A DNA stretch of 63,996 nucleotides, filler included, from a bacterium (GTDB lineage: Bacteria > UBA9089 > CG2-30-40-21 > SBAY01), in the NCBI GenBank assembly GCA_040757115.1. It is 12 parts of 12 records of this genome, joined end to end, with 100 filler letters (N's around TTAATTAATTAA, not from the genome) between each part and the next. Parts side by side here need not be neighbours in the genome. Positions count along the whole stretch, not along the records: positions 1 to 25,869 come from JBFLYA010000032.1; 11 more parts are not named here. The stretch is one strand, 5' to 3'. Positions within the stretch are counted from its first letter, which is position 1; each line of letters starts with the position of its first letter. The notes under the pieces were generated by a model. That model saw nothing but the letters and a program-made list of their open reading frames with translations, ran no database searches and was not told where the DNA came from. Below, piece after piece: positions 10,963 through 33,506 of this stretch. The position numbers were made by a program, and so were the translations under genes.

Positions 10963-11346
10963 ATGACATATTTGCAAAAGGAGGAAAATCTAAATATGGA
11001 TGAAAATTTAGAAACTCTAAGTTCAAATTGGATAAGAGGTAAGAATAAATTAATAGGTGAAAAAGCTGTTATTGATACAGTAAGCGGGAACAATATGAGT
11101 GTTGCAAGGTATACGATGCATGAAAAAATGAATGTGGCAAAACATTCTCATGGATATGAGCAGATTGTTTATGTTTTAAAAGGAAAGATGATTTTGACTA
11201 TTGAAGATAAAGATTTCACAATGAAAAGTGGAGATATTCAAGTTATTTTAAGTGAACAAGAACATTCTGCCAGTATAGTTGATGTGCCATATCAATGTAT
11301 CGAGTTTTATAGTCCTAAAAGAAATGATATGCAATTGAATAAATAA
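10963..11346 (+). CDS. Cupin domain protein
   Basis: HSHGYEQIVYVLKG and EHS cupin metal-binding motifs. Confidence 0.88.
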   Translation: MTYLQKEENLNMDENLETLSSNWIRGKNKLIGEKAVIDTVSGNNMSVARYTMHEKMNVAKHSHGYEQIVYVLKGKMILTIEDKDFTMKSGDIQVILSEQEHSASIVDVPYQCIEFYSPKRNDMQLNK

Positions 11347-12426: not shown

Positions 12427-13938
12427 ATGACATGTTTGCAAAAGGATGTTCTTTTAATTGGTGATACCTTTGTTGCCAATTTGCTAGCTAAAAAAAATCA
12501 AGATAATGGTATTGAACACATGGATAATACGACAAAACAATTCTTACCAAGTGCAGCATTTGAAGATTCGTTTTTTAACGCTTTAAGGGAAGACTTTCAA
12601 CAAATCACTCTATCTGATACCATAGAAGATTTGTTAAATAACTCAATTAATCCAGCAGGACTACATCTTTCATCAATTCTTGAGAAGGAAGGCTTTTCAT
12701 ATGATGTAATTAATTGTTCATTAAAACATCATGAAAAATTAGTTAGCTTTTTAAAAAGTACAAAATATAGAGTAATTGGAATATCAACTACATTCACATT
12801 AGATAGAGCATATATTCTTAATTTAATAGATTTGATAAAGAGAAATGCACCTACATCTAAAATAATAGTTGGGGGCATATTTATTGTTAAATTATTTAAA
12901 CTGCAAAAAAAAGAAATATTGCAAAAAGAGTTATCGTTATTAAATGCTGACTACTTTGTATTTAACGAGATAGGAGAGCAATCATTAATCGATATTCTAA
13001 ATTATGAGCAATACTCTAAACCTGATATTCAGAAGGTATTAAACATTGCATATAAAACTGAAAGTGGTTTTATAATTAATTCATATAAAACAAATGATAT
13101 TGATACCTCTATTAGCAACTGGATATTATCAAATAACACAAACTATGCTTTTTTACGCACATCGATATCTTGTTTGTTTAAGTGCAAGTTTTGTGATTTC
13201 CCTCTTATAGCAGATAAGTATAAATCAAAATCAATTGAGGTTATACAACAAGAGTTTAAAAATATTGAAAAGGCTGGTATTAAATACATTCATTTTTTAG
13301 ACGACACCTTTAATATACCAAAGCAACATTTTTATACCATATTAAATGAGCTTGCTATCAAAGGTTATAATTTTGAATGGGTTGCCTATATTAGATGTCA
13401 GCATCTTGATAATGAGACAGTTAGCTTAATGAAAGAAACTGGATGTATTGGCGTTTTTTTAGGGCTTGAGTCAGGTAATAATGATGTGTTAAAAAACATG
13501 AATAAAGGTGCAACTGTAGAAAAATATCTTGATGGGATTTCATTTTTACATAAGTATGAAATTCCGACTTACGGTGCTTTTATTATCGGATTTCCTGGAG
13601 AAACTAATAAAAGTATTGAGGATACAATTAGGTTCATAAAACAAGCTAGGTTACAATATTATCGATTATTTTTGTGGTTTTATGATCTTCGATGTCCAAT
13701 AGCACATGAAGCTGTAAAATATTCACTTGAAGGTTCAGGATATAAGTGGAAACATTCAACAATGACATCAGATGAGGCTGTAGAAAAATGTAAATTTATA
13801 TGGAAAGAAGTAAATAATTCTATCCATTGTACAATTCCCTTTGATTACACCTTTTATTTAAATAGAAATGTCAACACTAAAGATATCTTCAATGAGTGCT
13901 TAAGGCGTTTTAATGAACGGAATGCAAGCCAATTCTAA
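12427..13938 (+). CDS. Cobalamin-dependent radical SAM methyltransferase, PhpK-like
   Basis: B12-binding domain (IGISTTF, KIIVGG), RTSISCLFKCKFCDFP (CxxxCxxC), FLDDTFNIP, GVFLGLESG, FIIGFPGET and WKHSTMTSDEA. Confidence 0.8.
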   Translation: MTCLQKDVLLIGDTFVANLLAKKNQDNGIEHMDNTTKQFLPSAAFEDSFFNALREDFQQITLSDTIEDLLNNSINPAGLHLSSILEKEGFSYDVINCSLKHHEKLVSFLKSTKYRVIGISTTFTLDRAYILNLIDLIKRNAPTSKIIVGGIFIVKLFKLQKKEILQKELSLLNADYFVFNEIGEQSLIDILNYEQYSKPDIQKVLNIAYKTESGFIINSYKTNDIDTSISNWILSNNTNYAFLRTSISCLFKCKFCDFPLIADKYKSKSIEVIQQEFKNIEKAGIKYIHFLDDTFNIPKQHFYTILNELAIKGYNFEWVAYIRCQHLDNETVSLMKETGCIGVFLGLESGNNDVLKNMNKGATVEKYLDGISFLHKYEIPTYGAFIIGFPGETNKSIEDTIRFIKQARLQYYRLFLWFYDLRCPIAHEAVKYSLEGSGYKWKHSTMTSDEAVEKCKFIWKEVNNSIHCTIPFDYTFYLNRNVNTKDIFNECLRRFNERNASQF

Positions 13939-14021: not shown

Positions 14022-14213
14022 GTAACTGTTCAGGTAGTATGGGAAAGTACATAACTATAATGTAACCTAAAGGTTAAGTGTTTACTTACTCTTAACAATG
14101 GTCCAAAAATTGACTAAAAATAGTTAAAAAACCGATGGATTTAACCTTCATGAAACACAAGATGTAGTGGAATTAGCATAATTAATCCATCTATACAGTG
14201 GCTGAACGGTTAC
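14022..14213. mobile_element. IS66-type MITE
   Basis: GTAACTGTTCAG ... CTGAACGGTTAC, with AAAAAAT duplicated on both sides. Confidence 0.75.
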
Positions 14214-14218
14214 AAAAA

Positions 14219-15034
14219 ATGATGGAAGTTAAAAGAGAATTAAAAAATAATTTTGATGTTAAGGGCGGCTTTGATGAATTATCTGAATTCTACGATTCAG
14301 ATGAATTGCGCTTCTTTTTAGACAGCTCCAAACTAATGGTTAAGGAACTTGACCTGACGGGTGTTAAAAATATTTTAGATGTAGCAACAGGTACAGGTCA
14401 TACTGCCATTGAAATGGCAAAAATTATACCCTACGGTAGTATAACTGGAATTGATATTTCTCGTTCTATGCTTGAAAAAGCAGAATTTAAAAGGGGCAAT
14501 TTATCTAATGTTGAGTTTAAGCAGCATGATATGACGTTTTTAGAATTGCTATATGGTAAATATGATCTTATTACTTGTTCGTTTGGGACATACTTTGCTA
14601 AGGACATGGTTCAATTCTTCAAAAGTGTATTCGATAAATTAACTGAAGATGGGAAAATTGTATTACTTAACTTTGCAGAGGAATCATTTATGCCATACGG
14701 TATGTTGTTTGTTAAAGATTTAGGGAAAATGGGTTTTTTCAAAGAATTTCCACCGTCATTTTCTATTCAAAATCGTAGATGTTTAGATAGTTTGAATATG
14801 GCGAAATTCGAAAATGTCAAAATAATAGAAAAACAATTGCAATATACAATAAAAAATCCGGCAGAATGGTGGAAAATTATATGGGGTACAGCATGCAGGA
14901 GTTTTTTAGCAGATTTATCACTTCAAGATATAGAAGTCTTTAAAGATTATCATCTAAAAAAAATAAAAACAATGATTGATGAAGGTATAAATACATATAA
15001 GGTCAATATATTAATTATAATTGGAACCAAATAG
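14219..15034 (+). CDS. Class I SAM-dependent methyltransferase (UbiE-like)
   Basis: ILDVATGTG, GIDISRSML and YDLITC motifs. True start is probably ATG 14219, because the upstream codons lie in the MITE. Confidence 0.88.
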   Translation: MMEVKRELKNNFDVKGGFDELSEFYDSDELRFFLDSSKLMVKELDLTGVKNILDVATGTGHTAIEMAKIIPYGSITGIDISRSMLEKAEFKRGNLSNVEFKQHDMTFLELLYGKYDLITCSFGTYFAKDMVQFFKSVFDKLTEDGKIVLLNFAEESFMPYGMLFVKDLGKMGFFKEFPPSFSIQNRRCLDSLNMAKFENVKIIEKQLQYTIKNPAEWWKIIWGTACRSFLADLSLQDIEVFKDYHLKKIKTMIDEGINTYKVNILIIIGTK

Positions 15035-15052: not shown

Positions 15053-16039
15053 ATGAAACTAAATACCAGTGTAAAATATATGGATTATTATATCCCAGAA
15101 AAAACTGTTTCTGTTGATGAAATATTATCGATGAATAAAAACATTTCAATTGATTCTGTTAATAACTATGACGAGTTTGTTCAACAATTTAGAAAACAAA
15201 GTGGACTGGACAGGATTGCTGTTTTAGATTCAAAAGATAATTTGGCTAACATAGCATCTGATATGGTAGATAAGCTTTTTCAAAATACAGACATAAAACC
15301 ATCAGAGATAAAGTATTTAGTCTGCGGAAATCGTGTTTTAATGGATGATAATATCTCTACGATACATTATATACAAAAGAAATTTAATCTTGAAAATGCG
15401 GTTATTTTGCCTATATTTCAAGACTGTGCCTCAACACTAATTGCGATGGGAATATCTGAGAAATTATTAAATAAAAGTGCTAAAGAATATATGCTCGTTT
15501 TAACAGCAAGAAAATGTCCAGATATCAAAGGTAGGTATGTTGGTTTTACGGTAATGGGTGACGGGCTATCACTAGTATTGATTGAAAACAAACCAGGTAG
15601 GATTAACATAACAAACTGGTGTTCATATAATAATGGGGTAAGTAGTTATAGCAAAATGGAAGGTTCGGCTAAGAGTTTAAGTGTAATTAATTTACAGATG
15701 AATATTATCACCAGTGGTGTTTCATTTTTACAAAGGTCTATGAAAAAAATTGATATTATGATGGAAAATATAGATAAAATTATTCATCCAAATACTAATT
15801 ATGATGTATTTCATGAACTTTATAGTAATTTACTAAATATTGAACCAACAAAGTTTTACCTTGACAATATACGAAATGGCGGCCATATTAATGATGTGGA
15901 TCTTGTTAGAAATACTAAGGATTATATATATAAAAACAAATCCCAAAAAAAAAGAATGAATGTGTTAATTTATGGTATAGATCTTGTTCAATCACTTGAT
16001 ATAAATTACCATATCATAACTCTGGAAATCAGTTTATAA
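15053..16039 (+). CDS. 3-oxoacyl-ACP synthase III (KASIII/FabH)-like enzyme
   Basis: QDCAS catalytic Cys, MGDG, IIHPN and GHINDVD. Confidence 0.75.
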   Translation: MKLNTSVKYMDYYIPEKTVSVDEILSMNKNISIDSVNNYDEFVQQFRKQSGLDRIAVLDSKDNLANIASDMVDKLFQNTDIKPSEIKYLVCGNRVLMDDNISTIHYIQKKFNLENAVILPIFQDCASTLIAMGISEKLLNKSAKEYMLVLTARKCPDIKGRYVGFTVMGDGLSLVLIENKPGRINITNWCSYNNGVSSYSKMEGSAKSLSVINLQMNIITSGVSFLQRSMKKIDIMMENIDKIIHPNTNYDVFHELYSNLLNIEPTKFYLDNIRNGGHINDVDLVRNTKDYIYKNKSQKKRMNVLIYGIDLVQSLDINYHIITLEISL

Positions 16040-16073: not shown

Positions 16074-16736
16074 ATGAACATGTTTAAAAAATTAGTTGAT
16101 TTTTATCTTCAACAAGATGAAGTAGAAGTATTATTAAGGCACTGTGACGTTGAAGAAATAATATTTTTTGTTTTAGGTCCTAATGGAACACATATAAATA
16201 TGGCAGCTAATGAATGGGCAAAAAAAATAAATGTTTTTAATAAATCAGTTTTTCATTTTGTAGAAACACTAGAAATAGCTGTATTAAAGGCAAAAGAAGT
16301 AGTTGATGTCCATAGACTTCCTATTTTTGTAACGTGTGCCGTTTATGATAAATTAAACAAACTATTTTTTGGAAATCCTGATTGTTACTTTTTTCTACAT
16401 CACCATTACATGCGATTAGATAATATACAGCTATCTGCTAGAAAAAAGGTTGATATTATACCACCAGAATGGATAATCGCATCTCACCCGTCACCAAAAT
16501 TTCTAGTTACCCACCTACCAAATAGAATCATAGAAACCTCATCAAATTCAAAGGCAGCAATACTATGTGCCGAAGGGAAAGTCGATTGCTGTATTACAAA
16601 CGAGACATCAAAAAATCTCTATAACTTGGAGACGATTTTTCATTTTGGGAAGCCAATATTACCATTTTATTTTTCAACCACATTATCTGGCATAAAGATT
16701 CTTAAAAAAATAAAGGCTCTGCAAAAAAAATCATGA
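16074..16736 (+). CDS. BacA/AerD-like prephenate decarboxylase (prephenate dehydratase fold)
   Basis: LGPNGT, CAVY, ASHPSP, SNSKAA and CITNE motifs; 220 aa with no ACT domain. Confidence 0.6.
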   Translation: MNMFKKLVDFYLQQDEVEVLLRHCDVEEIIFFVLGPNGTHINMAANEWAKKINVFNKSVFHFVETLEIAVLKAKEVVDVHRLPIFVTCAVYDKLNKLFFGNPDCYFFLHHHYMRLDNIQLSARKKVDIIPPEWIIASHPSPKFLVTHLPNRIIETSSNSKAAILCAEGKVDCCITNETSKNLYNLETIFHFGKPILPFYFSTTLSGIKILKKIKALQKKS

Positions 16737-16777: not shown

Positions 16778-18353
16778 ATGAATAGGTTGGATGAAATAAT
16801 TAATATCAGAAAAGAGTCTAATGAAATAGCTATTATCCATAAGAATAAATTTATTAGCTATAAAGAGTTATTTATTTATGCATCTAATTTAAGTAATATC
16901 ATATGTGAGAATAAAACTGGAGTATCCCCAAATATAGTTATTTATCTTGAAAAATCAATAGAATATATTATCAGTATTTTCGGCATATTAAAGTCTGGGG
17001 CTACTTATATACCAATAGATTATCAAATTCCGCTTGAGCGTTTGAACTATATTATTAAGAACTGTAATTCATCCTTTATCATTACTAATAGCAATGGAGT
17101 TAAAAAGTTAAGAAATCAAATATATAGTAATATGAAATTTATTATTATTGATGATTTCAAGAATGATACACAACCAGAATTAAATAATAATCCAAATTTA
17201 ATTTATTGGTATAACAAGGACAAAAAAGATTATTTCGATAATAAAAACTACAATGCGGAGATTGCCTATATAATTTACACTTCTGGTTCAACGGGACATC
17301 CGAAAGGAGTAATGATAAAAAATGAAAGTGTAGTAGCTTTTATTTTATCTATAATAGAATTAGTTTCTTATAATAGTGAGACACGATATTTAAATGTTTC
17401 TCCATTACATTTTGATGCTTCAGTTGTTGATATTTTTTGCACATTATATGCTGGTGGAACTCTTATTTTAATGGATAATTTTGTTTTACCAAATAGTCTC
17501 TTAGCAACTATGCAAGATCAAAGGATTACTGATACTCTTTTAGTGTCCTCAATTCTTAAATTACTCACTAGCAGATACAGTAAGTTGGAATCATTTGACT
17601 TAACCCATTTAAAAACTATTTGGTATGGAGCTGAGTCATGTCCAGTGAAAGTAATAAAGGAAATCAAGAAAAAACTACCAAATATTAGATTTATACATGG
17701 ATATGGGCCTACAGAGGCCACTCATACCACAACTTTATATATTTTTGATGAAATTGATAATAATTAATGAAGACTTTATGCCTATAGGAAAACCATTACC
17801 AAATGTAGAAGTATTTGCTCTTAATGATGTTGGAAATGAAATCATGCCTGGAGAAGTTGGAGAGTTGTATATTGGAGGTGTTCAACTATTTGCAGGTTAT
17901 TGTAATGATATTCAAAAAACAGAATCAGTAATAGTAAATAAGATTTTAGAGAAGAAGGGCAGATTTTACAAGACAGGTGATTATGTAACTATTGATAGTG
18001 AGGGCAATTATATTTTTAAAGGTAGAAAAGATGATATGATTAAAATTGCTGGACAACTAATATATTTAAAAGAAATTGAGAAAGTTTTGTTGTCATATAA
18101 CAAAATAATAGATTCATTTGTATATCATATTGATGATGAATTATTTAATTCCAAAATTATTGCTTTTATTGTAAGTCAATCAACTGATGCCATTCTTGAA
18201 TCAGAATTAATCAATTATCTAACAAATAAACTACCTAAATACATGATTCCAGCAAAATTTCATTTTTTAAATGCTGAAGAAATCCCTAAATCATCTACTG
18301 GTAAAATTGATAGACAATCCCTTATCGATTTAGCAAAACAAATAATTAATTAG
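16778..18353 (+). pseudogene. Stand-alone amino acid adenylation (NRPS A) domain, frameshifted near 17760
   Basis: YIIYTSGSTGHPKG, FDAS and YGPTE in 16778-17767; GELYIGG, YKTGD, GRKDD and PKSSTGKIDR in 17697-18353. Confidence 0.85.
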
Positions 18354-18362
18354 GAGGCAATA

Positions 18363-18656
18363 ATGGACTTAGAACAATTTTTTGAAGTGAATAAAAGAGT
18401 TAATTTAACCTGGTTTTATCCAAAGATATGTAAGTTTCAAGATCAAAAAGAAGAAGATTCCGTTTTTTTTCAATTTTTAGAAACTGATAAACCCAAAGCT
18501 CCTTTTCTTTTATATATACATATACCATTTTGCGAATCTTTTTGTGCTTACTGCGCTTGCTTTAAAGAAAATGTTTATAAATATAGTAGAGAAGAAAGAG
18601 TCCAATTTGTTAATGCAATGATTAAAGAATTACAAAAATATGCAAGCACTCCTTGA
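18363..18656 (+). pseudogene. HemN-like (class C) radical SAM enzyme, 3'-truncated
   Basis: LYIHIPFCESFCAYC motif; fused directly to IS1634 sequence at ~18652. Confidence 0.8.
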
Positions 18657-19432
18657 TTGTCATTCTACCGCTAAAGAGAAGAAAGAGGGGGGATAAAGGA
18701 TTTATTCAGGCAACGGTTTGAAGAAGGATTAAAGAATATCCAGGCAGGTCTTTGTAAAAGGAATGGCACCAAGAAATATGAAAAGGTTATTGAAAGAATA
18801 GGACGGTTGAAAGAGAAGTTCAAGCAGGTAGCCCATTATTATGAGATTAGTATTGAGACAGATAGTAAGATGAAGAAGATTGTTGCCATTAGCTGGTATG
18901 AAAAGGAAAGAGAAGGTAATGAGGGTGTGTATTGTATACGAACCAACATAAATGGTTTCAATGAGCAAGAGATGTGGAATATTTGGACAATGCTTACCGA
19001 TGTAGAGGATGCTTTTAGATGTATGAAATCTGAATTGGGGTTAAGACCTGTCAATCACCAGAGAGAAGATAGAGTAGATGGGCATCTTTTTATTACGGTT
19101 CTTGCTTATCATATTGGACACACTATTCGTTTTAAATTACGTCAACAGGGCACACATTATAATGGGGCAACTATTCGTCAGTTATTGTCTACCCATGTAA
19201 GGATACCTACAACGATGAAGAGAAAAGATGGTAAGTTAATTCAGATAAGGAAGTCTTCAGTATCTGAATTATCTCACAAAGAAATCTACGAGGCTTTAAA
19301 TTTATCTTATCAACTGGGTAAAACTATTAAATTGATTTTGTGAGCATACAAACTATAGTGTCAAAACTCAATTTCTCTATTCTGTAACCTATTGATAATA
19401 CAAGACTTATTTTTTGAAAGTATGAAGTTGGG
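18652..19432 (+). mobile_element. IS1634-family transposase 3' remnant with right end
   Basis: CHSTAKEKKE, EGVYCIRTN and VEDAFRCMKSELGLRPVNHQREDRVDGHLFITVLAY; ends AAGTTGGG. Confidence 0.85.
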
Positions 19433-19806: not shown

Positions 19807-21189
19807 ATGATTCAAGAATTATTTAACAATTCATTTATCGTTTCAACCAGAAAACTAACAATTCAAAGATTTAAAAACTGGATGTGTAAAAAAAATGGCT
19901 ATTACATTACTGTTTTTAATGAGGCATTAGTATCTCAAATTAAAAAAAATGATTTATATATTAATTTTGATACAATGCAAATCATGAGCAAAGAAAAAAA
20001 TCAATATGGACTAAGGATCGATGGGAATGTTTTATTATTGAGTAATAATGAAATGAATACTAGAGATCTTTATTATATTTATGATAAAAATGCTAATTTA
20101 TTTATAATATTTAATAATTTACTTTTGGCAAAAGAAATTTTATTGAAATCCGGACTGTCTTTAGAATATGATTATAATAAAATTTATGAGAATGGAAGTT
20201 ATTTTAAGCATATACAATTGCTTGAACATTCCGAAGTGATAACAATTAACAATCAAAACGGAACAATAACATTAACCAAAACAAAATTAGAAGATGTGTT
20301 AATTCAAATTAAAGTTAATAATCTATATACCATAGAAGCTGTTAATCAAAAATTATTAAATATATTAATTGAAACTACAGAAATACTAACCCGAAATTAT
20401 GATAATGTTTCAATTCTTTTATCCGGAGGTTTGGATTCTGCAACTATTGCCTATATTTTAAAAAAATTGAATAAGAATGTAACAGCATATACAGTAGGTA
20501 CAGAGTGGGATAATGAATATGAAGATGCAGCAAAGATTGCTAAGTATATTAATATAAACCTTAACAAAATATTTCTATCCAAAGAAGAGATGTTAAGAGA
20601 AATCCCTTATATTATTGCTTTTTTAGGGTTTAACAATGATGAGAACATAGAAATTTCATTAGTTCCGCAGTGTCTATTTAGAAAAATCAGCGAGCTCTAT
20701 CCAGATCGAAAAATACTTTTTGCCACCGGTTTTGGTGCTGATCTCATTAATGCCGGTATTTATCATGAATTTAATGATTATGATGCATTAAAGGAGCAAT
20801 TAATTCAAGTATTATATAAGACTAGAATGAGTAATGAGTTATATAGTAATTTGTTTTTCAACAATAACAGTTATTTTCCTAATATAAATGTTGTGCATCC
20901 GTTTTGGAATATTGAGGTTATAAAGGAATCTTTAAGGATTCCAACTGAATTTAAAATACAAAACAATATTGGCAAATACTTCTTTAGAAAAATGATGGAA
21001 GAGCATTTGGGGAAAGAAAATGCTTGGAGGTCTAAACAGGCTATACATCAGGGGACAGGTATAAGTGCAAATTTGAAAACAATAATATTAGATAAGAATG
21101 AAATTTTACAGAATGATGATTATAAATTATATTATAAGGACTTACATAAAAAACTATTTTTTGAAAATGATTTTTCACTGTTAAAATAG
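19807..21189 (+). CDS. Beta-lactam synthetase/CarA-like enzyme (asparagine synthase superfamily)
   Basis: LSGGLDS, VGTEWDNEY, TGFGADL, KTRMSNEL, HPFW and WRSKQAIHQG; no N-terminal Cys1. Confidence 0.75.
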   Translation: MIQELFNNSFIVSTRKLTIQRFKNWMCKKNGYYITVFNEALVSQIKKNDLYINFDTMQIMSKEKNQYGLRIDGNVLLLSNNEMNTRDLYYIYDKNANLFIIFNNLLLAKEILLKSGLSLEYDYNKIYENGSYFKHIQLLEHSEVITINNQNGTITLTKTKLEDVLIQIKVNNLYTIEAVNQKLLNILIETTEILTRNYDNVSILLSGGLDSATIAYILKKLNKNVTAYTVGTEWDNEYEDAAKIAKYININLNKIFLSKEEMLREIPYIIAFLGFNNDENIEISLVPQCLFRKISELYPDRKILFATGFGADLINAGIYHEFNDYDALKEQLIQVLYKTRMSNELYSNLFFNNNSYFPNINVVHPFWNIEVIKESLRIPTEFKIQNNIGKYFFRKMMEEHLGKENAWRSKQAIHQGTGISANLKTIILDKNEILQNDDYKLYYKDLHKKLFFENDFSLLK

Positions 21190-21211: not shown

Positions 21212-22207
21212 ATGAAAAACTGTATTTATTTTAATATTGCTGATTATGATATATGCAAATCCAGTTATACGATTGAACCTGTTTTTCAGAATTATCTTAA
21301 GACTAAAATAGATTATATATTATCAAATAATCCTGTTAATAGCATAAAATCGGATGATATTCCTTCGGATTTCTTTAAAATTATCACACATAGGGAATTT
21401 AATTGCCAGTTAGCAAATAAAATAGTACAATGGAAAGAGACGGTAGTTCGTGAGGCTGGGATGTACGTGTCAAAAAATGAACCTATAAAAATTTATTTTG
21501 CATTAGGCGGCGGATATAAAGCTTCACTCGATGTACTTAATTTTAATACATTGAATTATTCTATTGGTCTGGGGGAATTGCTCGTTATTTATCAAATTAA
21601 AAAACTGGATGAAAAGATAAAACAAATATATAAACCAGGTATTACATTCAATATCGTAATAGATAATGGCGTTGCTAATTATGTGAATAACATACCCCGA
21701 GAGAAAACATTACACTACTGTAATTTGTTAAAAAAATTAATTGTAAAATTAAGAATGGATCATTGTATTAATCTTATAATTCAAACTGAAAATCTGAATT
21801 GGGATGAAAATATCAAAAAAATAAGTTATACTCCATTAAAATTAAAAGAAATCTCTGAAAGGCAACATGCTAATGTTATGCGATTTTTGGGTAGGAAATG
21901 TACATATGAGGAAGCATTAATGCTACAGAATAAGTATAATGCCTGCATGTTAATTTCCGGGCAAATAATAAAACAGGCTAGAGAAAACGATTTATGGTTT
22001 CTGCAATACAGCAACAACGGCGAGTTAACTTTCAGATCATTTCCTGGTGGAGTGTGTAGAATACAAGTGGGTGATATTGCATTGGTGAATAATCATAAAG
22101 TAATCCCATTTTCACTTTCAACTGAAAATATAAAGAATTATAATCCTTTTTGCTATAAAATTAATTTTGAAAACTTTTTCAAATTAATGCATATCATGAA
22201 TATCTGA
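21212..22207 (+). CDS. Hypothetical protein, distant DIT1/PvcA (isonitrile synthase)-like
   Basis: PIKIYF..GGYK...GELLVIYQIKKLDEKIKQIYKPGITFNIVID resembles the PvcA N-terminal pattern. Confidence 0.45.
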   Translation: MKNCIYFNIADYDICKSSYTIEPVFQNYLKTKIDYILSNNPVNSIKSDDIPSDFFKIITHREFNCQLANKIVQWKETVVREAGMYVSKNEPIKIYFALGGGYKASLDVLNFNTLNYSIGLGELLVIYQIKKLDEKIKQIYKPGITFNIVIDNGVANYVNNIPREKTLHYCNLLKKLIVKLRMDHCINLIIQTENLNWDENIKKISYTPLKLKEISERQHANVMRFLGRKCTYEEALMLQNKYNACMLISGQIIKQARENDLWFLQYSNNGELTFRSFPGGVCRIQVGDIALVNNHKVIPFSLSTENIKNYNPFCYKINFENFFKLMHIMNI

Positions 22208-22220: not shown

Positions 22221-22688
22221 ATGGTAGAACTATTATTAAGCGAATTAATTAAAAAAGGATATGATTTTTATACAGGAGTACCTTGTTCATTACTCATCTC
22301 CTTTTTTAATTATATCTACGCGAATCCCAGTAAACTTACATATGTTAGTGGATTAAGAGAGGATACAGCAGTGGGTATATCAGCAGGTGCTTATTTAGCA
22401 GGGAAAAAACCTGCAATTTTAATGCAAAATTCGGGATTTGGTTCATCCATTAATGCAATCACCTCATTATTATTACCTTATGATATACCAGTCTTTTTTA
22501 TCATCGGATACAGAGGATATCAAGGTAAGGATACGGAAGAGAATAAAGGTATGGGAGCATTAACCGAGAAATTATTAGCTGATTTGGATATTCCCTATTT
22601 ATTTTTACAAAAGAGTTCAGTTAATGAAATAATGGATTTTCTTATTGTTAATTCAAGTAAGAGCAGGGCATTATTAATTACAGAGTAA
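22221..22688 (+). CDS. Phosphonopyruvate/sulfopyruvate decarboxylase alpha subunit (TPP enzyme PYR domain)
   Basis: FYTGVPCS, REDTAVGISAGAYLAGK, MQNSGFG and IGYRG. Confidence 0.85.
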   Translation: MVELLLSELIKKGYDFYTGVPCSLLISFFNYIYANPSKLTYVSGLREDTAVGISAGAYLAGKKPAILMQNSGFGSSINAITSLLLPYDIPVFFIIGYRGYQGKDTEENKGMGALTEKLLADLDIPYLFLQKSSVNEIMDFLIVNSSKSRALLITE

Positions 22689-23534
22689 CAACTCAGCTTT
22701 GGTTAAAGTGATGGTAAATTTCTTCTTAATTTTTTTCTCAAAAATGCCGATAAATATAATAGAATGGGAAATAAATACCCGAAGAAAACAAAAACAAAAG
22801 AATCACTGTACTTGGATTGCAAAATAGTTAAAGAGATGGAATTAAAGATAGAAAGACAAGAGCATTGATAGAGAAATTAGAGAAGGATATAAAAGCCTTA
22901 CAAAACAGACTTTCCTTAGACAGCCGTAATAGTCACAAACCCCCATCTTTTGATGGATTTAAGAAGAAGGTCATTAAAGGTTTGCGTAAACTCATGGGAA
23001 GAAATTCGGGTGAACAACCTGACTATAGGGGAGAAACATTAAAGATGGTAGATAACCACCGAAGGATAATTAGACATGGTGTAGAGAGATGCAAGGGGTG
23101 TCAAAGAGATATACAAGATGCAAAGCCAATAGATATAAAGAAAAGACAGGTTTTTAGATATACCTCTAGAGGGTATAGAAGTAATTGAGCATCAAGCGGA
23201 GGTAAAGAGAGGTAATAATTGTGGAGTAGTAAATGAAGCAAATTTTTCAGAAGATGAAAATACCCTATCCAGTACGGGAAGAGGCTAAAATCATTAGCGG
23301 TTTATTTTATTAATTGTAATTTTGGTCAATAATTTTCCCTTAATTTTGAGGAATAAATTGGCCTAAAAAAGACAGTTAAGAGAGGGGGTAAGTAGGATTA
23401 AATAATCCTGAGAGGGTGATATTTAAAGGAATATTTTGGTCTATTTTGGGATTTTGGCAAGCAAAGGGGAGGGAGGAGTTGCCAGAGCTGGTCTTCTGGC
23501 AAATCCTGGGGTTGGATATAGAGATGAGTTATTT

Positions 23535-23945
23535 TCAGGGAAGAGGCAGGTCATCCTGATTTAAGTCAAAGAGACGGAAGGAGGAAGCGAGGAAATACTC
23601 TGGTTGATCAAAGAAGGTGGGGATATCCTGTGTCATAAGCCAATCTTTAATAACACAAAGGATATCAGGTATTTTTCGGTGAGGGATGAATAAGATTTTG
23701 TCAGGATGATTGATGTTGCTGAAGAAGTGATGGGCAGAGGTAGAGGAATTGAACTGGAGTTGGTCAAAGAAGAAGATAGAGGGTTCAAATTGATGTTGTT
23801 TAAAGGGATCAATCCAGTTAAGGAAGAGGGAATTAGAAGGTAAGTCTTTAAGGTAGAAGTTTTTGCTGTCTAAGAGAGCAAAGGAGTGGGAAAGGATGAC
23901 CGCCTGGAAGGAAGTTGATGAGAGATTAACGCCGACATACAACAT
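23535..23945 (-). CDS. Hypothetical protein of the nested ExeA-ATPase transposon remnant
   Basis: ORF with GGAGG RBS directly after the ExeA-like fragment. Confidence 0.5.
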   Translation of the reverse strand: MLYVGVNLSSTSFQAVILSHSFALLDSKNFYLKDLPSNSLFLNWIDPFKQHQFEPSIFFFDQLQFNSSTSAHHFFSNINHPDKILFIPHRKIPDILCVIKDWLMTQDIPTFFDQPEYFLASSFRLFDLNQDDLPLP

Positions 23946-23958
23946 AATTACACCTCCA

Positions 23959-24347
23959 TTAGATTTCCTGATTGGCAGCAAAGACATGCTCTTGGGTTAA
24001 GGTTTGAGTCTTGTCGTGGAAGCCAGCGGTCATAATTTTAAGGGCTAAGGAGTCGATGAGACGAGGGATACCAGCGGTATGTTTGAAGATAGCCTCTATA
24101 GATGCTGGAGAGAATGGGGATTTTTGGCAGCCTTTGATCGAGAGGTGGTGGGAGATATAAGGTTCGATCTCATCCTTTGTCAGAGGGATAAGGTGATATT
24201 TGAGATGAATACGCTGATTAAAGGAGCTAAGGATAGAGCGAGCAAGCCTATCGCGGAGATGGGAGTGAGCAACTAAGATAAAGAGAGCAGGGTCAGTAGA
24301 GTCCATATTGAAGTTGGAAACAATTTGGAGTTCATAGAAGTTTTCAT
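23959..24347 (-). pseudogene. ExeA-like AAA transposition ATPase, C-terminal fragment
   Basis: LQIVSNFNMDS, FNQRI, YISHHL and GIPRLIDSLA. Confidence 0.75.
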
Positions 24348-24379
24348 CCTAAAATCGGCAAGTTCACAGCTGCAAATAG

Positions 24380-24714
24380 TTCGACCTGTGAAATAGGTTT
24401 CGACCTGTGTGGTTAGGTTTATACTACTGTATTTTCTCCTTCGCCCCTGCGGGGCTTAATTGATTTTTAATCTAATCTTCCGTAGGTTAAAACCTATGGC
24501 TAATATACTGCAACCCTTCGGGTTTTAATAATGATTTTATTAATTATCCTATTTAGACACCGAAGGTGTCGAGGAATTTAGCCGCAGATTTTAATCTACG
24601 GAATAATAGTGCTCCATAAGGCAAGCCTTGACAGGGCGTAGGAAAGATTTCAACACATTCGTATTTTATCGGAAGTTTTTCTATTTTTCTTTAAAACCTA
24701 TTTCACAGGTCGAA
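24380..24714. repeat. Element bounded by a perfect 21-bp inverted repeat, containing REP-like hairpins
   Basis: TTCGACCTGTGAAATAGGTTT ... AAACCTATTTCACAGGTCGAA; internal CCGTAGGTTAAAACCTATGG and GCCCCTGCGGGGC hairpins. Confidence 0.7.
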
Positions 24715-25624
24715 AAAGTGTGCTAATGAGAGAAACATAATTGTCTCAAAAGCAATTTGTTTCTTTTGGTGAAACTTTTCCTGAAATGTAACAAAAAACC
24801 AGGTAAAATTGTCACTTAAACACTCTTTAAGATAATAAGTTGATTCTTTACTCCTGTGCATATTTCTTTGCCTCCTCCCTGTTTTTTTGGATAGTTTTGT
24901 TATCCTTTATCCATTATAACATAGGAGGCAAAGAGTTACAACTACTTTAGTTATAAATGGTTATACCCTTGTTTCTCAATAGTTAAGCATTTTCATTTGA
25001 GTTAATCTTTAACTCTATATGTTTCAATCTGTTTTGTAAATTTAGGAATTATCAGTCTACAATATAAATCAGACTTATGAAGAAGAAAAGGCAGAATGGG
25101 CAGAAAAGATGATAAGATGTTTGCTTGATATAAAAGAAAAGACTGATAATGCAAAAGAGAATGATAAACAAGCATTAGAACCTAAAGTGATAGAGTTTTT
25201 TGATCAAAGATATGAAACAATATTAGAAGAAGGAGAGAAGATGTACTCAGCTAATCACAATAAAGAATCAGGAAGAAGGGGAAGAAAAATCAGAGCAAGA
25301 ACAAGAATCTACTGGATAGATTAAAGAAATACAAGAGACAAGTATTGCATTTATGTATAATCTTTCTATCCCTTTTGACAATAATCTTGTGGAAAGAGAC
25401 ATAAGGATCATGGAGATAAAACAAAAGATATCAGGATGTTTCAGGAGTGAAGAAGGTGCAAGATTCTTTTGCAGAATAAGGAGTTATATTTCTACCAAAC
25501 AAGGACAAAACATTATTGATGCACTATCTTTTGTTTTTATTGGTAAGCCCTTTGTACCTATTAGAGTTGAAGATGGGTAGGCTGAGGAGTTATTTTACAG
25601 AATAATATGTTAGGAGATAATTAA

Positions 25625-25747
25625 GTGAATACAATTGAGTGTATTGAAGTAATAATTAGAAACTTAGACGAGATGCCAATTTTATTTTCTAATGGTTTTA
25701 TAAGCAGGTATGGATATAAACTTTTGGACCGTAAGTGCCACTTTTAT
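25625..25747 (+). pseudogene. Phosphono/sulfopyruvate decarboxylase beta subunit, N-terminal fragment (not in the ORF track)
   Basis: AGGAG RBS, GTG start, MNTIECIEVIIRNLDEMPILFSNGFISRYGYKLLDRKCHFY. Interrupted by an IS end at 25748. Confidence 0.75.
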
Positions 25748-25869
25748 CCTGAAATCGGCAAGTAGTTGAGTAAAAAGGGGGGAGTGGGGTAAAAAAGAAG
25801 GCTATTTTGACAAATTGGGGAGAGAATTAAGGAAAAGATGAAGGGAATTAGATAACAGATAGGATTAAG
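25748..25869 (+). mobile_element. Multi-copy IS end (family unassigned)
   Basis: Identical to 61620-61741 (CCTGAAATCGGCAAGTAG...). Both copies terminate contigs. Confidence 0.75.
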
Positions 25870-25969
25870 NNNNNNNNNNNNNNNNNNNNNNNNNNNNNNN
25901 NNNNNNNNNNNNNTTAATTAATTAANNNNNNNNNNNNNNNNNNNNNNNNNNNNNNNNNNNNNNNNNNNN
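25870..25969. other. Artificial contig linker (also 29591-29690, 33273-33372, 36954-37053, 40548-40647, 44133-44232, 47706-47805, 51258-51357, 54773-54872, 58263-58362, 61747-61846)
   Basis: 100-nt N-run/TTAATTAATTAA/N-run with stops in all six frames. Confidence 0.99.
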
Positions 25970-26091
25970 TCTCTATGGTCATTAATTCCCCCGTGTTTTT
26001 ATTCGCTTATATTACTTATATCGGAACACGAGGAACAAAACTTAAATCTTATCTATAATCTTTCTCCATCATCCTTCTTTTTGCTGAATAG

Positions 26092-26643
26092 TTACCTTTT
26101 ACCTATCATTACAAAAGCAATTTTAGCCACCCTATCAATAGCAGTGTAAATATAGTTTCTTCCCTTGTTAATCTTTGGAGCATAAAGTAAATCCATCTGA
26201 AGGTATCCCATAGTATATTTGCGAAACTTCTTAATCTTTCTTTCAGCATTAATAAACTCTTCAGGCACGATATTCAAATTATGCCTTTTTAAACAACGGT
26301 AAATCTTCATTGGATAAAGATTGGGTATTTTATCTTCTAAAGTAAAAAAGATGTCTTCAATTGTCTTCTTAAATTGCTTTCTTTCAAAACAAATTAAATC
26401 TTCTTGTTCTTTTGTTAAATCGGTACGAAGTCTATGTGGACGAGAGGATTTATCTTCAAGGCTTTCAGCCTTTTTCCATCTTTGAGCCATAGTTTGAGTA
26501 ATGCCATACTTTTTAGCCAAAGCATAAGCAGAAAGAGGGCTTTCTTTAATAATTTGTCTTATTGCTAAAGTTGTAGCAGCTTTTTTGTGTAACTTTATTT
26601 CCATACGCTAAGATTATACACCTTAACGTATCGTTAGTCAACA
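26092..26643 (-). mobile_element. IS481-family transposase, 3'-truncated
   Basis: LHKKAATT, LEDKSSRPHR, GYLQMD and YTAIDR. Left end starts TGT at 26643; cut by a GTAACTATTCAG end. Confidence 0.85.
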
Positions 26644-26880: not shown

Positions 26881-27552
26881 TCACTTAACAAGTACTCCAT
26901 CATGTATTTTTTCTACTCGTGAGGCATGTTTCATTATCATTGGATCATGAGTGGAAAAGAGGAAAGTAACTCCTTTTTCAGTGTTAAATCGTCTCATTAA
27001 CTCAATAATAGCATGTCCTGTGAATGAATCCAAATTTGCTGTTGGTTCATCTGCTATTATAATTATTGGGTCAATTACAAGGGCTCTTGCTATACTCACC
27101 CTCTGTTGTTGCCCACCACTTAATTCATTTGGACGGCTATTCTTAACTTCAGTTAATCCAATCTCATCAAATAAATGAAGAATCTTCCTTTGCCTTTCCT
27201 TTTTATTAGTTTTTTGCAATAATAAAGGAAACTCTACATTCTCATATGCAGTAAAGACAGGAATTAAATTGAAAGTTTGAAATATAAAACCAATTTTTTC
27301 TTTTCTAAGTCGTGATAGGTGAGTCATACTTAGCTTGGAAATATTCTTTTCACAAATGAATATATTACCTGCTGTTGGTATATCTAGACAACCGACTAAG
27401 TTTAGAAGTGTCGTTTTCCCAGAACCAGAAGGACCGGCTATCACCACAAATTCTCCCTTTTTAACTTTCAAATTTACACCTCGTAATACCTTATAAATTA
27501 CATTTCCTTGATAGTAATTCTTTATTAAATCCTCAGTCTTTATAATCTCCAT
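26881..27552 (-). CDS. ABC transporter ATP-binding protein (LolD/MacB type)
   Basis: GPSGSGKT, LSGGQQQRV and ADEPTANLD. Confidence 0.93.
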   Translation of the reverse strand: MEIIKTEDLIKNYYQGNVIYKVLRGVNLKVKKGEFVVIAGPSGSGKTTLLNLVGCLDIPTAGNIFICEKNISKLSMTHLSRLRKEKIGFIFQTFNLIPVFTAYENVEFPLLLQKTNKKERQRKILHLFDEIGLTEVKNSRPNELSGGQQQRVSIARALVIDPIIIIADEPTANLDSFTGHAIIELMRRFNTEKGVTFLFSTHDPMIMKHASRVEKIHDGVLVK

Positions 27553-27577
27553 ATTTCCTTCTTTTAAAAAATCTCCA

Positions 27578-28708
27578 TTAAAAATATACTATTAACTTTC
27601 CAGTCAATTTATATTTGCTTGTATCCATCCTATATTCACTTCCTCTTTTTCCACCTTTAATATCTGCTTTTAAAGATAAAGTTGTATTATCATATATGAA
27701 GAAATTAAGTTGTGGTACTATTATAAAACTTCCATCATCTAAGTTCCAAATAAAATCAGTTAGATTTAATATTTCATCAGTAAAATTATAATTTATTCCT
27801 ATGTACATGTAATTCTTCATTATTTCTCCTAATATGAAAGGGTTACCAAAATTATAATACTTAAGGTATTCATCCATATTAATATAACCTTTACTATTAT
27901 GGTAGTATTCTAACTTTATCACCCCATAGTTTTCAGGAAATATTCTATAATCTGCACCTAAAATAACATTGGAGAAGTTTCCTTGTGTAAAGGAAACTTC
28001 TCCATGAATATTGGATAAATCTAAGATATTTCCACTAAAGGCACAACCTAATATACCCTTTTTCCCTCCTTTTGTATATCCGCTCAAGGAAACATCATAG
28101 TTAGATAAACATATTTTTATTCTGGCTGCTACTTCTGACTCTTCTATATTTTTCTTTGGAACCAATATTCCACTTATTGCTGTTCTCTTAAATAAAACTT
28201 CCGCCTTTATAGCATTTATTCCTTTACTTTCGAAACTTGGATCTCTTGAATCTAAAGGATTCTCTGAGGAACTTATATAATTTGTTGGATTCCAGAGGAA
28301 ACCATTTCCCCACGTAATATTTTGTTTGCCACAAAGTAAATAAAAAGACTTTTTCTTTAAAGAGATATACCCTCTATATAGATTCAATGTAGTCTTTGAC
28401 TCTATTGTATCATAGTAGAGTGAAACCTTTATAGAAGTTTTAGGAGTATTATCTCTTTTTGTATTTAAGTTAAGGGTGAGTTTAATTGTATTGTTAAGTT
28501 CTGGAGGCAGAAAATATTGAGTTATAGTTGATAAGGAATTAGATTGAGTATAAGTAAGATTATTTTCAATATCCCCACTAAATTCAAAAGATTCTGCATA
28601 TACCAGATTAATTAAATTACCCAGAGTTAAAAATGTCAAGATTAACACTATAATATTCCATTCTATCCTTGATATGTTAATTCTCTTCGATATGTTAATT
28701 CTCTTCAC
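27578..28708 (-). CDS. Outer-membrane beta-barrel protein
   Basis: Signal peptide, GKQNITWGNG motif, C-terminal YF. Confidence 0.7.
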   Translation of the reverse strand: MKRINISKRINISRIEWNIIVLILTFLTLGNLINLVYAESFEFSGDIENNLTYTQSNSLSTITQYFLPPELNNTIKLTLNLNTKRDNTPKTSIKVSLYYDTIESKTTLNLYRGYISLKKKSFYLLCGKQNITWGNGFLWNPTNYISSSENPLDSRDPSFESKGINAIKAEVLFKRTAISGILVPKKNIEESEVAARIKICLSNYDVSLSGYTKGGKKGILGCAFSGNILDLSNIHGEVSFTQGNFSNVILGADYRIFPENYGVIKLEYYHNSKGYINMDEYLKYYNFGNPFILGEIMKNYMYIGINYNFTDEILNLTDFIWNLDDGSFIIVPQLNFFIYDNTTLSLKADIKGGKRGSEYRMDTSKYKLTGKLIVYF

Positions 28709-33494: not shown

Positions 33495-33506
33495 AGAAAC
33501 TTCAGG

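What the first reader, a model, noticed from the sequence alone, without database searches (positions are those of the whole stretch)
19807..21189. CarA/beta-lactam-synthetase-like enzyme with Phe at the catalytic Tyr position
Seen: no glutaminase Cys1, and motifs GTEWDNEY, TGFGADL, TRMSNEL, HPFW and WRSKQAIHQG. Known: CarA and beta-LS have TGYG(S/A)D, HP(F/Y)W and KxGxHEG, with a Tyr-Glu dyad and a catalytic Lys, whereas asparagine synthetase B has SGEGADE. Here the Glu and Lys appear retained but the Tyr is Phe (TTT at 20731-20733). Inference: a lactam-forming or amide-ligating enzyme with an altered mechanism or ring size. Decay to an inactive allele is also possible.
Basis: partly seen in the sequence, partly recalled or inferred. 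Interest (0 to 1): 0.8.

Follow-up and report, generated by a model that had tools for sequence, protein, structure and literature searches.

The report
Lactam-synthetase relative with Phe for Tyr
An intact gene from an uncultivated groundwater bacterium encodes a relative of the enzymes that close the beta-lactam ring, and a catalytic tyrosine of those enzymes is replaced by phenylalanine in it and in its seven closest relatives, so this is a small new enzyme subfamily and not a broken gene.

Summary
ORF 19807-21189 (+) encodes 460 aa with every quoted motif. TTT at 20731-20733 (Phe309) aligns with the dyad Tyr of CarA and beta-lactam synthetase (beta-LS); Glu344 and Lys410 align with their Glu and Lys.

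The Phe is not decay or error. All 7 close homologues (46-52% identity, 459-461 aa) have ATGFG, with the PP-loop, Glu344, Lys390 and Lys410 invariant.

In trees the protein lies inside the glutaminase-less group that holds beta-LS, CarA and ThnM, away from AsnB-like rows. It is in none of those three clades. It sits in a fourth clade with the Rhodococcus fascians att-locus enzyme and two other genes flanked by crotonase and TauD genes.

The nearest sisters keep Tyr. Tyr was lost at least 4 times in the group, and those three flanked relatives have Leu, Met or Val.

The Phe clade also has a Glu loop five residues longer, with a new invariant Tyr346.

The substrate is unknown. The locus is cut by IS fragments and has no crotonase or TauD gene. 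The genes just downstream are an orphan Dit1/PvcA-like gene and a truncated ThDP decarboxylase. I rate it a new variant of a known kind, of moderate interest.

The parts
19807..21189 (+). Intact 460-aa ORF: glutaminase-less asparagine-synthetase-B-fold enzyme related to CarA, beta-LS and ThnM (protein P0001)
   Evidence: AF2 model pLDDT 94.7, pTM 0.93; Foldseek best matches beta-LS and CarA, TM 0.71-0.74
20422..20439 (+). PP-loop S206-G-G-L-D-S211 (ATP pyrophosphatase motif)
   Evidence: S206, G208 and D210 are invariant in 122 aligned relatives. S206, G207, G208, D210 and S211 are invariant in the 8-member clade.
20731..20733 (+). TTT = Phe309, at the position of the dyad Tyr of CarA, beta-LS and ThnM
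20836..20871 (+). Remodelled Glu loop E344-L-Y346-S-N-L-F-F-N-N-N-S355: Glu retained, five residues longer than in sister clades, with a clade-invariant Tyr346
   Evidence: lowest-confidence block of the model (residues 341-350, mean pLDDT 71)
20974..20976 (+). Lys390, invariant in all 122 aligned relatives
21034..21036 (+). Lys410, which aligns with the catalytic Lys of the CarA/beta-LS K-x-G-x-H-E-G motif; here K-Q-A-I-H-Q-G
21212..22207 (+). Next gene, 22 nt downstream: 331-aa orphan with a Dit1/PvcA-like (isonitrile-synthase family) fold
   Evidence: Pfam PF05141 28.1 bits against a cut-off of 26.4; Atlas feature score 0.95 and structural TM 0.73 to Dit1 clusters; no homologue other than itself in the word-based search
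22221..22688 (+). 155-aa ThDP-enzyme N-terminal subunit, like sulfopyruvate or phosphonopyruvate decarboxylase alpha. No partner subunit follows; IS fragments come next.
   Evidence: PF02776; TIGR03845 113.9 bits and TIGR03297 112.9 bits, both below their cut-offs
18675..19343 (+). Open frame that I read as a transposase fragment (no family match) between a truncated HemN-like radical-SAM gene (18363-18656) and the synthetase gene
   Evidence: no Pfam hit; HemN-like fragment TIGR00538 E 1e-12
22832..23188 (+). DUF6444 fragment (which I recall as an IS66-family N-terminal domain) that ends the operon; the contig ends in N-runs at 25870

Best explanation
The ORF encodes a functional member of a small, previously undescribed subfamily: 8 sequence clusters, found only in metagenomes and MAGs. 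The subfamily belongs to a fourth, uncharacterised lineage of glutaminase-less asparagine-synthetase-B-fold enzymes, the group that also holds beta-lactam synthetase, CarA and ThnM.

Shown: the two-domain fold, the intact PP-loop, the conserved Asp312, Lys390 and Lys410, the retained Glu344, and the fixed Phe309.

Inferred: the enzyme uses ATP/Mg to adenylate a substrate carboxylate. An amine, most likely one carried by the same substrate, then attacks to form an amide (a lactam), and no glutamine is used.

The Tyr hydroxyl that relays the proton in CarA and beta-LS is absent. The base is then Glu344 itself, possibly helped by the clade-specific Tyr346 two residues on in the lengthened loop. 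The Tyr-to-Phe change is a lineage trait under selection, in a clade where the dyad is labile. It is not a lesion.

In this genome the surrounding pathway may no longer work, because IS fragments cut the genes on both sides.
For: Family and fold:
- The best solved relatives by sequence are CarA and beta-LS.
- They are also best by fold, at TM 0.71-0.74 against 0.67-0.70 for AsnB/ASNS.

Purifying selection:
- 7 of 7 close homologues at 46-52% identity have the same length.
- Mean column identity is 73%, with ATGFG, S206-S211, E344, Y346, K390, K410 and H414 invariant.
- S206, G208, D210, G308, G310, K390 and K410 are invariant in 122 relatives.

Placement:
- The Phe clade has 8 rows (SH-aLRT 100).
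- It lies in a 17-row clade (99-100) whose other 9 rows have Tyr.
- That clade lies in a 33-44-row clade (99-100) separate from the clades of the annotated S. clavuligerus beta-LS, the Pantoea CarA in a carABCDE-type locus, and the S. cattleya ThnM identified by context.
- FastTree recovers the same nested groups.

Dyad lability:
- At least 4 Tyr/non-Tyr changes are needed among 67 ingroup rows.
- The R. fascians att enzyme has Leu and no Glu, the Acinetobacter plasmid enzyme has Met and no Glu, and the S. decoyicus enzyme has Val with Glu. All three are flanked by crotonase and TauD genes.

Loop remodelling:
- 22 positions separate the Phe clade from its sisters.
- They include F309 (Tyr in 9 of 9 sisters), F291 (Tyr in 8 of 9), and Y346, N348 and L349 in an insertion.
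Against: - No biochemical data exist for any member of the fourth clade, so lactam formation is extrapolated from the three characterised lineages.
- I could not obtain model coordinates, so whether the Tyr346 hydroxyl can reach Glu344 or the substrate is untested. The other non-Tyr relatives show no consistent compensating Tyr.
- The window has no crotonase or TauD partner among the 40 neighbour and other ORFs scanned.
- Neighbourhoods of the 7 homologues could not be fetched.
- The two neighbours tested give no sign of conserved linkage. The Dit1-like gene has no detectable homologue. Close homologues of the upstream B12 radical-SAM gene lie on contigs whose lengths differ from those carrying the synthetase homologues.
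- P0001 has 4 unique changes at 54 deeply conserved columns, against 0-2 in each of 16 relatives. This small excess would fit slightly relaxed constraint, or simply its basal position.
- In the AS-like nitrile synthetase PesC, a Tyr-to-Phe change at a different dyad abolished activity (PMC13060819, passages read).
Confidence: 0.6

Rival explanations
1. Same chemistry, neutral substitution. The enzyme is an ordinary carbapenam-type or other lactam synthetase. In this fourth clade the Tyr is simply dispensable, Glu or water does the deprotonation, and Phe309 and Tyr346 carry no mechanistic meaning.
For: Tyr was lost at least 4 times. 3 of 3 relatives inspected that sit in CarB/CarC-like (crotonase + TauD) contexts have Leu, Met or Val there. 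There is no consistent compensating Tyr in other non-Tyr rows.
Against: The Phe is invariant across 8 sequences that are only 46-52% identical, and the immediate sisters are 9 of 9 Tyr. The switch also coincides with a fixed 5-residue loop expansion around the partner Glu, which looks like a coordinated active-site change. No crotonase or TauD gene lies near this gene.
Confidence: 0.25
2. Intermolecular ligase. The enzyme adenylates a carboxylate and transfers it to an external nucleophile (ammonia, an amine, hydroxylamine or hydrazine, or a peptide C-terminus) instead of closing a ring. Recently described AS-like tailoring enzymes do this.
For: AS-like enzymes are reported to catalyse amidation, hydroxylamine transfer, hydrazine transfer and nitrile formation (PMC13622209 and PMC13060819, passages read). 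An external or alpha-effect nucleophile would need less help from a Tyr base. The neighbouring Dit1/PvcA-like and ThDP genes point to amino-acid or keto-acid tailoring.
Against: The enzymes in those papers are described as glutamine- or glutamyl-donor-using AS-like proteins, whereas this protein has no N-terminal Cys. Every named relative inside the glutaminase-less group in my trees is a ring-closing enzyme. No precursor-peptide gene was evident in the small frames listed between 18300 and 19900.
Confidence: 0.12
3. Decaying or inactive allele. The gene is a relic in an IS-ridden, dying gene cluster, and Phe309 is part of its loss of function.
For: A transposase-like fragment lies directly upstream and a DUF6444 fragment ends the operon. 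The adenylation-domain gene upstream is split by a frameshift, the HemN-like gene is truncated, and the ThDP enzyme lacks its second subunit. There is a small excess of unique changes in P0001.
Against: The ORF is full length with all ATP-site residues intact. The Phe is shared by all 7 homologues from other assemblies, so it long predates any decay in this genome. The frameshift and the contig end may be assembly artefacts of a draft metagenome bin (N-runs at 25870-25969).
Confidence: 0.05

Closest known systems
Carbapenam synthetase CarA (PDB 1q15/1q19; Pantoea sp. At-9b orthologue in a carABCDE-type locus, L032)
   Same: Best sequence match among solved structures (E 1.9e-20) and TM 0.74. 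Shares the two-domain AS-B fold without Cys1, the PP-loop, and the HPFW, Glu and K-x-x-x-H-x-G Lys motifs.
   Different: Phe replaces the dyad Tyr and the Glu loop is longer with a new Tyr346. It lies in a different clade. There are no CarB crotonase or CarC dioxygenase neighbours.
[quoted passage not shown]
   Same: Top Foldseek hits (E 5.5e-22, TM 0.71-0.73). Shares the ATP-site residues, Glu and Lys. In both loci a ThDP-dependent enzyme gene lies close by.
   Different: Phe replaces Tyr and it lies in a separate clade. The ThDP gene here is a sulfo/phosphonopyruvate-decarboxylase-type small subunit, not the 555-aa thiamine-pyrophosphate-binding protein gene that precedes bls (recalled as CeaS).
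ThnM of the thienamycin cluster (S. cattleya pSCATT, L034 11539-12915; identified here by context, with gene names recalled from the literature)
   Same: Glutaminase-less. Its clade is sister to the fourth clade (SH-aLRT 91). Both loci hold B12 radical-SAM genes.
   Different: ThnM keeps Tyr and Glu. The window's B12 radical-SAM gene is only 18-22% identical to those beside ThnM and is separated from the synthetase gene by the transposase-like fragment.
AS-like enzyme of the Rhodococcus fascians att locus (pFiD188, L035) and its Acinetobacter and S. decoyicus plasmid relatives (L031, L030)
   Same: Same fourth clade (99), and they also lack the dyad Tyr. No product or activity for these enzymes is known to me (recalled).
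   Different: They are flanked by crotonase and TauD genes and two of them also lack the Glu. The window protein keeps Glu and has other neighbours.
Asparagine synthetase B (E. coli 1ct9, human ASNS)
   Same: Same overall fold (TM 0.67-0.70) and Pfam PF00733.
   Different: No Cys1 or glutaminase function. TIGR01536 scores 82.4 bits against a cut-off of 267.1. AsnB-like rows carry SGEGADE-type motifs and form the outgroup.

Membership tests
Glutaminase-less AS-B-fold lactam synthetases (beta-LS/CarA/ThnM assemblage) | Two-domain asparagine-synthetase-B fold with no N-terminal Cys nucleophile | tested here: met
   Sequence starts M-I-Q; AF2 pLDDT 94.7; Foldseek TM 0.71-0.74 to beta-LS and CarA over both domains
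Glutaminase-less AS-B-fold lactam synthetases (beta-LS/CarA/ThnM assemblage) | PP-loop SGGxDS and conserved ATP/Mg-site Asp and Lys residues | tested here: met
   S206-S211 and K390 are conserved and K410 is invariant; D312 is nearly invariant
Glutaminase-less AS-B-fold lactam synthetases (beta-LS/CarA/ThnM assemblage) | Groups with beta-LS, CarA and ThnM and away from glutamine-dependent AsnB-like proteins in a tree | tested here: met
   Ingroup of 54-67 rows with SH-aLRT 99-100 against 6-8 AsnB-like rows. No lasso cyclase or TblS row was available.
Glutaminase-less AS-B-fold lactam synthetases (beta-LS/CarA/ThnM assemblage) | Tyr-Glu catalytic dyad (paper title seen in reference lists; details recalled) | tested here: not met
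   Glu344 is present but the Tyr position is Phe309 in 8 of 8 clade members
Glutaminase-less AS-B-fold lactam synthetases (beta-LS/CarA/ThnM assemblage) | ATP-dependent ring closure of a beta-amino acid | not testable with these tools
   Needs an enzyme assay
Carbapenam synthetase CarA (orthologue group) | Falls in the CarA clade | tested here: not met
   The CarA clade (Pantoea L032 with P0183; 98-99) excludes it
Carbapenam synthetase CarA (orthologue group) | Adjacent CarB (crotonase) and CarC (2OG/TauD-type oxygenase) genes | tested here: not met
   Neither is among the ORFs from 8578 to 29450 scanned with Pfam; both are present in the Pantoea locus
Beta-lactam synthetase (clavam pathway) | Falls in the beta-LS clade and sits next to the large ThDP enzyme gene (recalled as CeaS) | tested here: not met
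   The beta-LS clade (L033, P0173, P0144; 99-100) excludes it. The nearby ThDP gene is of the Ppd/ComD small-subunit type.
Asparagine synthetase B (glutamine-hydrolysing) | N-terminal Cys glutaminase and a score above the equivalog cut-off | tested here: not met
   No Cys1. TIGR01536 scores 82.4 against 267.1; NF006949 scores 66.5 against 499.
Lasso peptide cyclase | Score above the NF033535 cut-off; precursor and B-protein genes nearby | tested here: not met
   37.8 bits against 525. No lasso-type neighbours are among the annotated ORFs. Small frames were only listed, not modelled.

The most novel reading that the evidence does not exclude
The Phe clade is a new kind of ring-closing or ligating enzyme. 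Its active site has moved the proton-relay Tyr from the TGYG strand onto the lengthened Glu loop (Glu344-x-Tyr346). It works with the adjacent orphan Dit1/PvcA-like enzyme and a ThDP decarboxylase on an amino-acid-derived intermediate, giving an unprecedented lactam (possibly one that bears an isonitrile or has a different ring size) in uncultivated anaerobes.
Probability: 0.12. Interest if true: 0.75.

Novelty: new variant of a known kind. Interest (0 to 1): 0.42.

Why it matters
Beta-lactam synthetase, CarA and ThnM are the only characterised ATP-dependent beta-lactam ring-closing enzymes I know of. As I recall the literature, their Tyr-Glu dyad is treated as a conserved mechanistic feature.

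This work shows that a fourth, uncharacterised lineage of the same enzyme group treats the dyad as optional. That lineage includes the R. fascians att-locus enzyme, whose product is, as far as I recall, still unknown. One rare subclade has fixed Phe together with a remodelled Glu loop.

If its members are active, they are natural experiments on how much of the dyad is needed for ring closure. They are also entry points to unknown lactam or amide natural products of uncultivated bacteria. If the substitution is neutral, the result still corrects the assumption that the Tyr is diagnostic of the family.

Tried and rejected
Searches for homologue neighbourhoods:
- Two genome-contig scans (alignment A1, then P0005) found no relative.
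- The first metagenome-contig scan found none.
tblastn of 14 window proteins against them showed no shared neighbourhood: single hits of the LolA-like, B12 radical-SAM and adenylation-domain proteins in three different loci.
- No whole genome is held for the window. A search through a plasmid handle gave no genome handles.

- The Dit1-like neighbour found only itself.
- The 12 closest homologues of the B12 radical-SAM gene (48-72% identity) lie on contigs of 2656-45360 bases. None matches the contig lengths of the synthetase homologues (5384-335926). This test is weak because only the longest contig is shown.
- The phosphonate-cluster idea was therefore dropped as unsupported. It rested on a PhpK-family radical-SAM hit of 393 bits against a cut-off of 600 and on a Ppd-like subunit. 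No PEP mutase was found among the 40 scanned ORFs.

Sequencing runs:
- One DNA holder was found, a groundwater metagenome that may be the source.

Literature:
- Raber et al. 2009 (both papers) and Miller et al. 2002 are not held.
- A search for Y348F/Y345F found nothing relevant.
- A search for lactam-synthetase-like terms returned mostly noise, with 30 of 641 papers listed.
- A search on phosphonate and AS-like terms listed 9 papers, of which one was read in passages.

Earlier notes of this scan: nothing near this place or like this sequence.

Full report
**Observation.** The ORF at 19807-21189 (+) is real and translates to 460 residues without stops.
- All quoted motifs are present: GTEWDNEY (231-238), TGFGADL (307-313), TRMSNEL (339-345), HPFW (364-367) and WRSKQAIHQG (407-416), plus a PP-loop SGGLDS (206-211).
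- Residue 2 is Ile, so there is no N-terminal Cys.
- Bases 20731-20733 are ttt.
- Pfam gives only Asn_synthase (88.2 bits). All NCBIfam matches are far below their cut-offs: AsnB equivalog 82.4 against 267.1, lasso cyclase 37.8 against 525.
- Against solved structures the order is CarA (E 1.9e-20), beta-LS (2e-15), human ASNS (2.8e-07) and E. coli AsnB (0.0043).
- In the printed alignments Phe309 lies under the Tyr of tgYgsdl and tgYgadi, Glu344 under their Glu, and Lys410 under the Lys of K-x-G-x-HEG.

**Is the Phe an error or decay?** No.
- The word-based search of 5.8 billion clusters found 7 full-length relatives (459-461 aa, 46-52% identity, 100% coverage). The next hit has 27% identity.
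- In the 8-row alignment the stretch A306-T-G-F-G310 is invariant, as are S206, G207, G208, D210, S211, E344, Y346, K390, K410 and H414. Mean column identity is 73%.
- One member of the P0008 cluster is named by its source 'MAG: Carbapenam-3-carboxylate synthase [Firmicutes bacterium ADurb.Bin419]'.
- P0001 shows 4 unique changes at 54 columns that are identical in the other 16 members of the wider clade, against 0-2 for each of the others. This is a small excess. None of the changes touches the ATP-site residues.

**Where it belongs.**
- The exhaustive profile-free search gave 1683 relatives at E <= 1e-3 and 264 at E <= 1e-10.
- In an alignment of 157 sequences (150 of the 150 listed rows, which include P0001, plus P0002-P0008) the dyad column reads Y 103, L 16, Q 12, F 10, E 5, M 2, S 2, I 2, and W, N, V, T, R once each. 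By inspection of the motif table, most of the L, Q and E rows carry AsnB-type (GxEE/GADE) motifs.
- I anchored the trees with named sequences:
  - P0183 is the CarA-like representative (472 bits to 1q15) and P0173 the beta-LS-like one (392 bits to 1jgt).
  - From annotated plasmids I took the S. clavuligerus gene annotated beta-lactam synthetase, which sits next to a ThDP enzyme gene, and the Pantoea sp. At-9b gene in a locus with crotonase, TauD-type dioxygenase, proline dehydrogenase and 2Fe-2S ferredoxin genes, i.e. a carABCDE-type locus.
  - I also took the S. cattleya pSCATT gene flanked by three B12 radical-SAM genes, a Nudix gene, an aldehyde dehydrogenase gene and an MFS gene. I take this gene to be ThnM; the gene names are recalled.
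- Three IQ-TREE runs were made: 75, 60 and 60 rows, a subset of the 157, chosen for full length plus landmarks. They agree on these points:
  - The glutaminase-less proteins separate from the AsnB-like rows (SH-aLRT 99-100).
  - Beta-LS, CarA and ThnM each head their own clade.
  - The window protein sits in a fourth clade (33-44 rows, 99-100).
  - Inside that clade, a 17-row clade (99-100) holds the 8-row Phe clade (100). Its nearest sister is P0042 of Pelosinus fermentans, which has Tyr (support 88-96).
- FastTree on the same columns recovers the 8-, 9-, 17- and 44-row groups (1.0, 0.96, 0.999, 0.87).
- These are quick searches, and many rows deviate in composition, so deep branch order among the four clades is not firm. 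TblS and lasso cyclases were not available as rows.

**How special is the Phe?**
- Among 67 ingroup rows, 53 have Tyr and 14 do not. At least 4 changes are needed on the tree.
- The fourth clade also holds three plasmid genes, each flanked by crotonase and TauD genes: the R. fascians att locus, an Acinetobacter indicus plasmid and an S. decoyicus plasmid.
- Their dyad positions read Leu (no Glu), Met (no Glu) and Val (Glu kept). CarA, beta-LS and ThnM all read Tyr plus Glu.
- So the dyad is conserved in the three studied lineages but labile in the fourth.

**What distinguishes the Phe clade.** 22 columns are fixed in it and differ from a residue or gap shared by at least 8 of its 9 sisters.
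- F309 replaces Tyr (9 of 9 sisters) and F291 replaces Tyr (8 of 9).
- R340 replaces Gln.
- The loop after Glu344 is five residues longer, N-E-[T/L]-Y-S-N-L-F-F-x-N-N-S, and carries an invariant Tyr346. The sisters and CarA have N/G-E-F-S.

**Structure.**
- With a 122-row alignment, AlphaFold2 gives mean pLDDT 94.7 and pTM 0.93. The least confident block is residues 341-350 (mean 71), which is the Glu loop.
- Foldseek against the PDB ranks beta-LS (1mc1, 1mbz; TM 0.71-0.73) and CarA (1q19, 0.74) first. ASNS/AsnB follow (0.67-0.70), then TsnB9 (0.55).
- Coordinates are not returned, so the geometry of Phe309, Glu344 and Tyr346 could not be measured.

**Surroundings.** The window is chromosomal DNA (fmt, nadC, rpsA, trpE) of an uncultivated bacterium. 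One groundwater-metagenome run holds it.
- Upstream on the same strand:

| Position | Gene |
|---|---|
| 10963-11346 | cupin |
| 11379-12353 | PP-loop-like protein |
| 12427-13938 | B12 radical-SAM; best model is the PhpK family, 393 bits against a cut-off of 600 |
| 14198-15034 | methyltransferase |
| 15053-16039 | KAS-III-like protein |
| 16074-16736 | weakly prephenate-dehydratase-like protein |
| 16778-18353 | adenylation-domain gene, split by a frameshift near 17.75 kb |
| 18363-18656 | 97-aa HemN-like radical-SAM stub |

- Then comes an open frame that I read as a transposase fragment (18675-19343; no family match) and about 460 bases with no long open frame. The synthetase gene follows.
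- Downstream, 22 nt on, is an orphan Dit1/PvcA-like gene. 13 nt further is a 155-aa ThDP N-terminal subunit of the sulfo/phosphonopyruvate-decarboxylase type. Then come a DUF6444 fragment, which I recall as IS66-family, and N-runs at 25870-25913 and 25926-25969.
- No crotonase, TauD or PEP mutase gene was found among the 40 ORFs scanned. Five ORFs of 150 aa or more were not scanned.
- Whether the upstream genes belong with the synthetase is open. The only tests I could run, the homologue search for the Dit1-like gene and contig-length matching for the radical-SAM gene, give no support.

**Mechanism.**
- Shown: the fold, an intact nucleotide site, no glutaminase nucleophile, Glu and Lys retained, Tyr replaced, and the clade conserved.
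- Inferred from the family: Mg-ATP adenylates a substrate carboxylate, and an amine attacks the acyl-adenylate to give an amide. The ring-closing activities of CarA, beta-LS and ThnM are recalled; the paper titles were seen in reference lists.
- Because every named relative inside the glutaminase-less group closes a ring, an intramolecular reaction (a lactam) is the most likely. I put this at about one in two.
- Without the Tyr hydroxyl, the proton must leave through Glu344 directly, through water, or through Tyr346 on the remodelled loop. The last is an untested idea, at about one in four.
- Recent papers show that AS-like enzymes also transfer hydrazine or hydroxylamine and make nitriles (PMC13622209 and PMC13060819; abstracts and passages read). 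An intermolecular reaction therefore remains a rival.

**Verdict.** This is a new, rare subfamily within a known enzyme kind. It is interesting mainly because it, and the wider fourth clade, show that the textbook dyad is not obligatory. The substrate and product are unknown.

Noticed in passing
L035 7632-8792 (R. fascians pFiD188), L031 9521-10711 (Acinetobacter indicus pB18-1), L030 11437-12813 (S. decoyicus plasmid): Three AS-like genes flanked by crotonase and TauD genes (a CarB/CarC-like trio) fall in the same fourth clade. All lack the dyad Tyr (Leu, Met, Val), and two also lack the Glu. The R. fascians and Acinetobacter loci share the order crotonase, AS-like, TauD, adenylate-forming enzyme, with argJ nearby.
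   Followed up: partly
window 16778-18353: A stand-alone amino-acid adenylation domain is split into two overlapping frames by a one-base shift in an A/T-rich run near 17745-17770. This is either a real frameshift or an assembly error.
   Followed up: partly
window 12427-13938: The B12-binding radical-SAM protein scores best with the PhpK P-methyltransferase family (393 bits, below the 600 cut-off). It has about a dozen close homologues (48-72% identity), all from unnamed assemblies. More distant ones are named PhpK family in Clostridium, Aminicenantes and Desulfobacterales.
   Followed up: partly
window 18363-18656 and 18675-19343: A 97-aa N-terminal stub of a HemN-like radical-SAM protein, with the CxxxCxxC motif present, is followed directly by an open frame that I read as a transposase fragment (no family match). 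I read this as gene truncation by an insertion.
   Followed up: partly
window 25870-25913 and 25926-25969: Two N-runs mark a scaffold gap. The first contig ends at 25869, which is the contig length on record for the window's own proteins. The joins across this point are therefore not verified.
   Followed up: yes
window 30555-30776, 33273-33503, 46789-48055, 49518-49601, 51358-51549, 54356-54772, 55632-55874, 58135-58361, 60399-60631: Several families of 70-220-nt dispersed direct and inverted repeats (76-100% identical) sit in intergenic DNA. They look like miniature mobile elements or regulatory repeats. A GAATTTGGAATTT-type stretch also lies upstream of the synthetase gene at about 19620.
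   Followed up: no
window 6097-10780 (+) and 26881-29450 (-): There are two modules with an outer-membrane-type LolA-like protein. One has an HAE3/MMPL transporter, a LolA-like protein and a DUF1302 protein. The other has a LolA-like protein, a 376-aa protein with no family match, and an ORF that looks like an ABC ATPase from its sequence motifs (not scanned). This suggests a diderm envelope, although the S1 protein resembles the Firmicute type.
   Followed up: no
window 42960-43856 (+): A 298-aa protein combines a nucleotidyltransferase domain and a HEPN domain (toxin-antitoxin or defence type). It lies next to an IS110-family transposase gene at 41198-42028.
   Followed up: no
window 2839-3684, 22832-26607, 41198-42028: There are many transposase genes and fragments: a weak IS240-type DDE match (just below the Pfam cut-off), DUF6444 (recalled as IS66-type), IS110, and others without a family match. 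The genome appears rich in insertion sequences.
   Followed up: no
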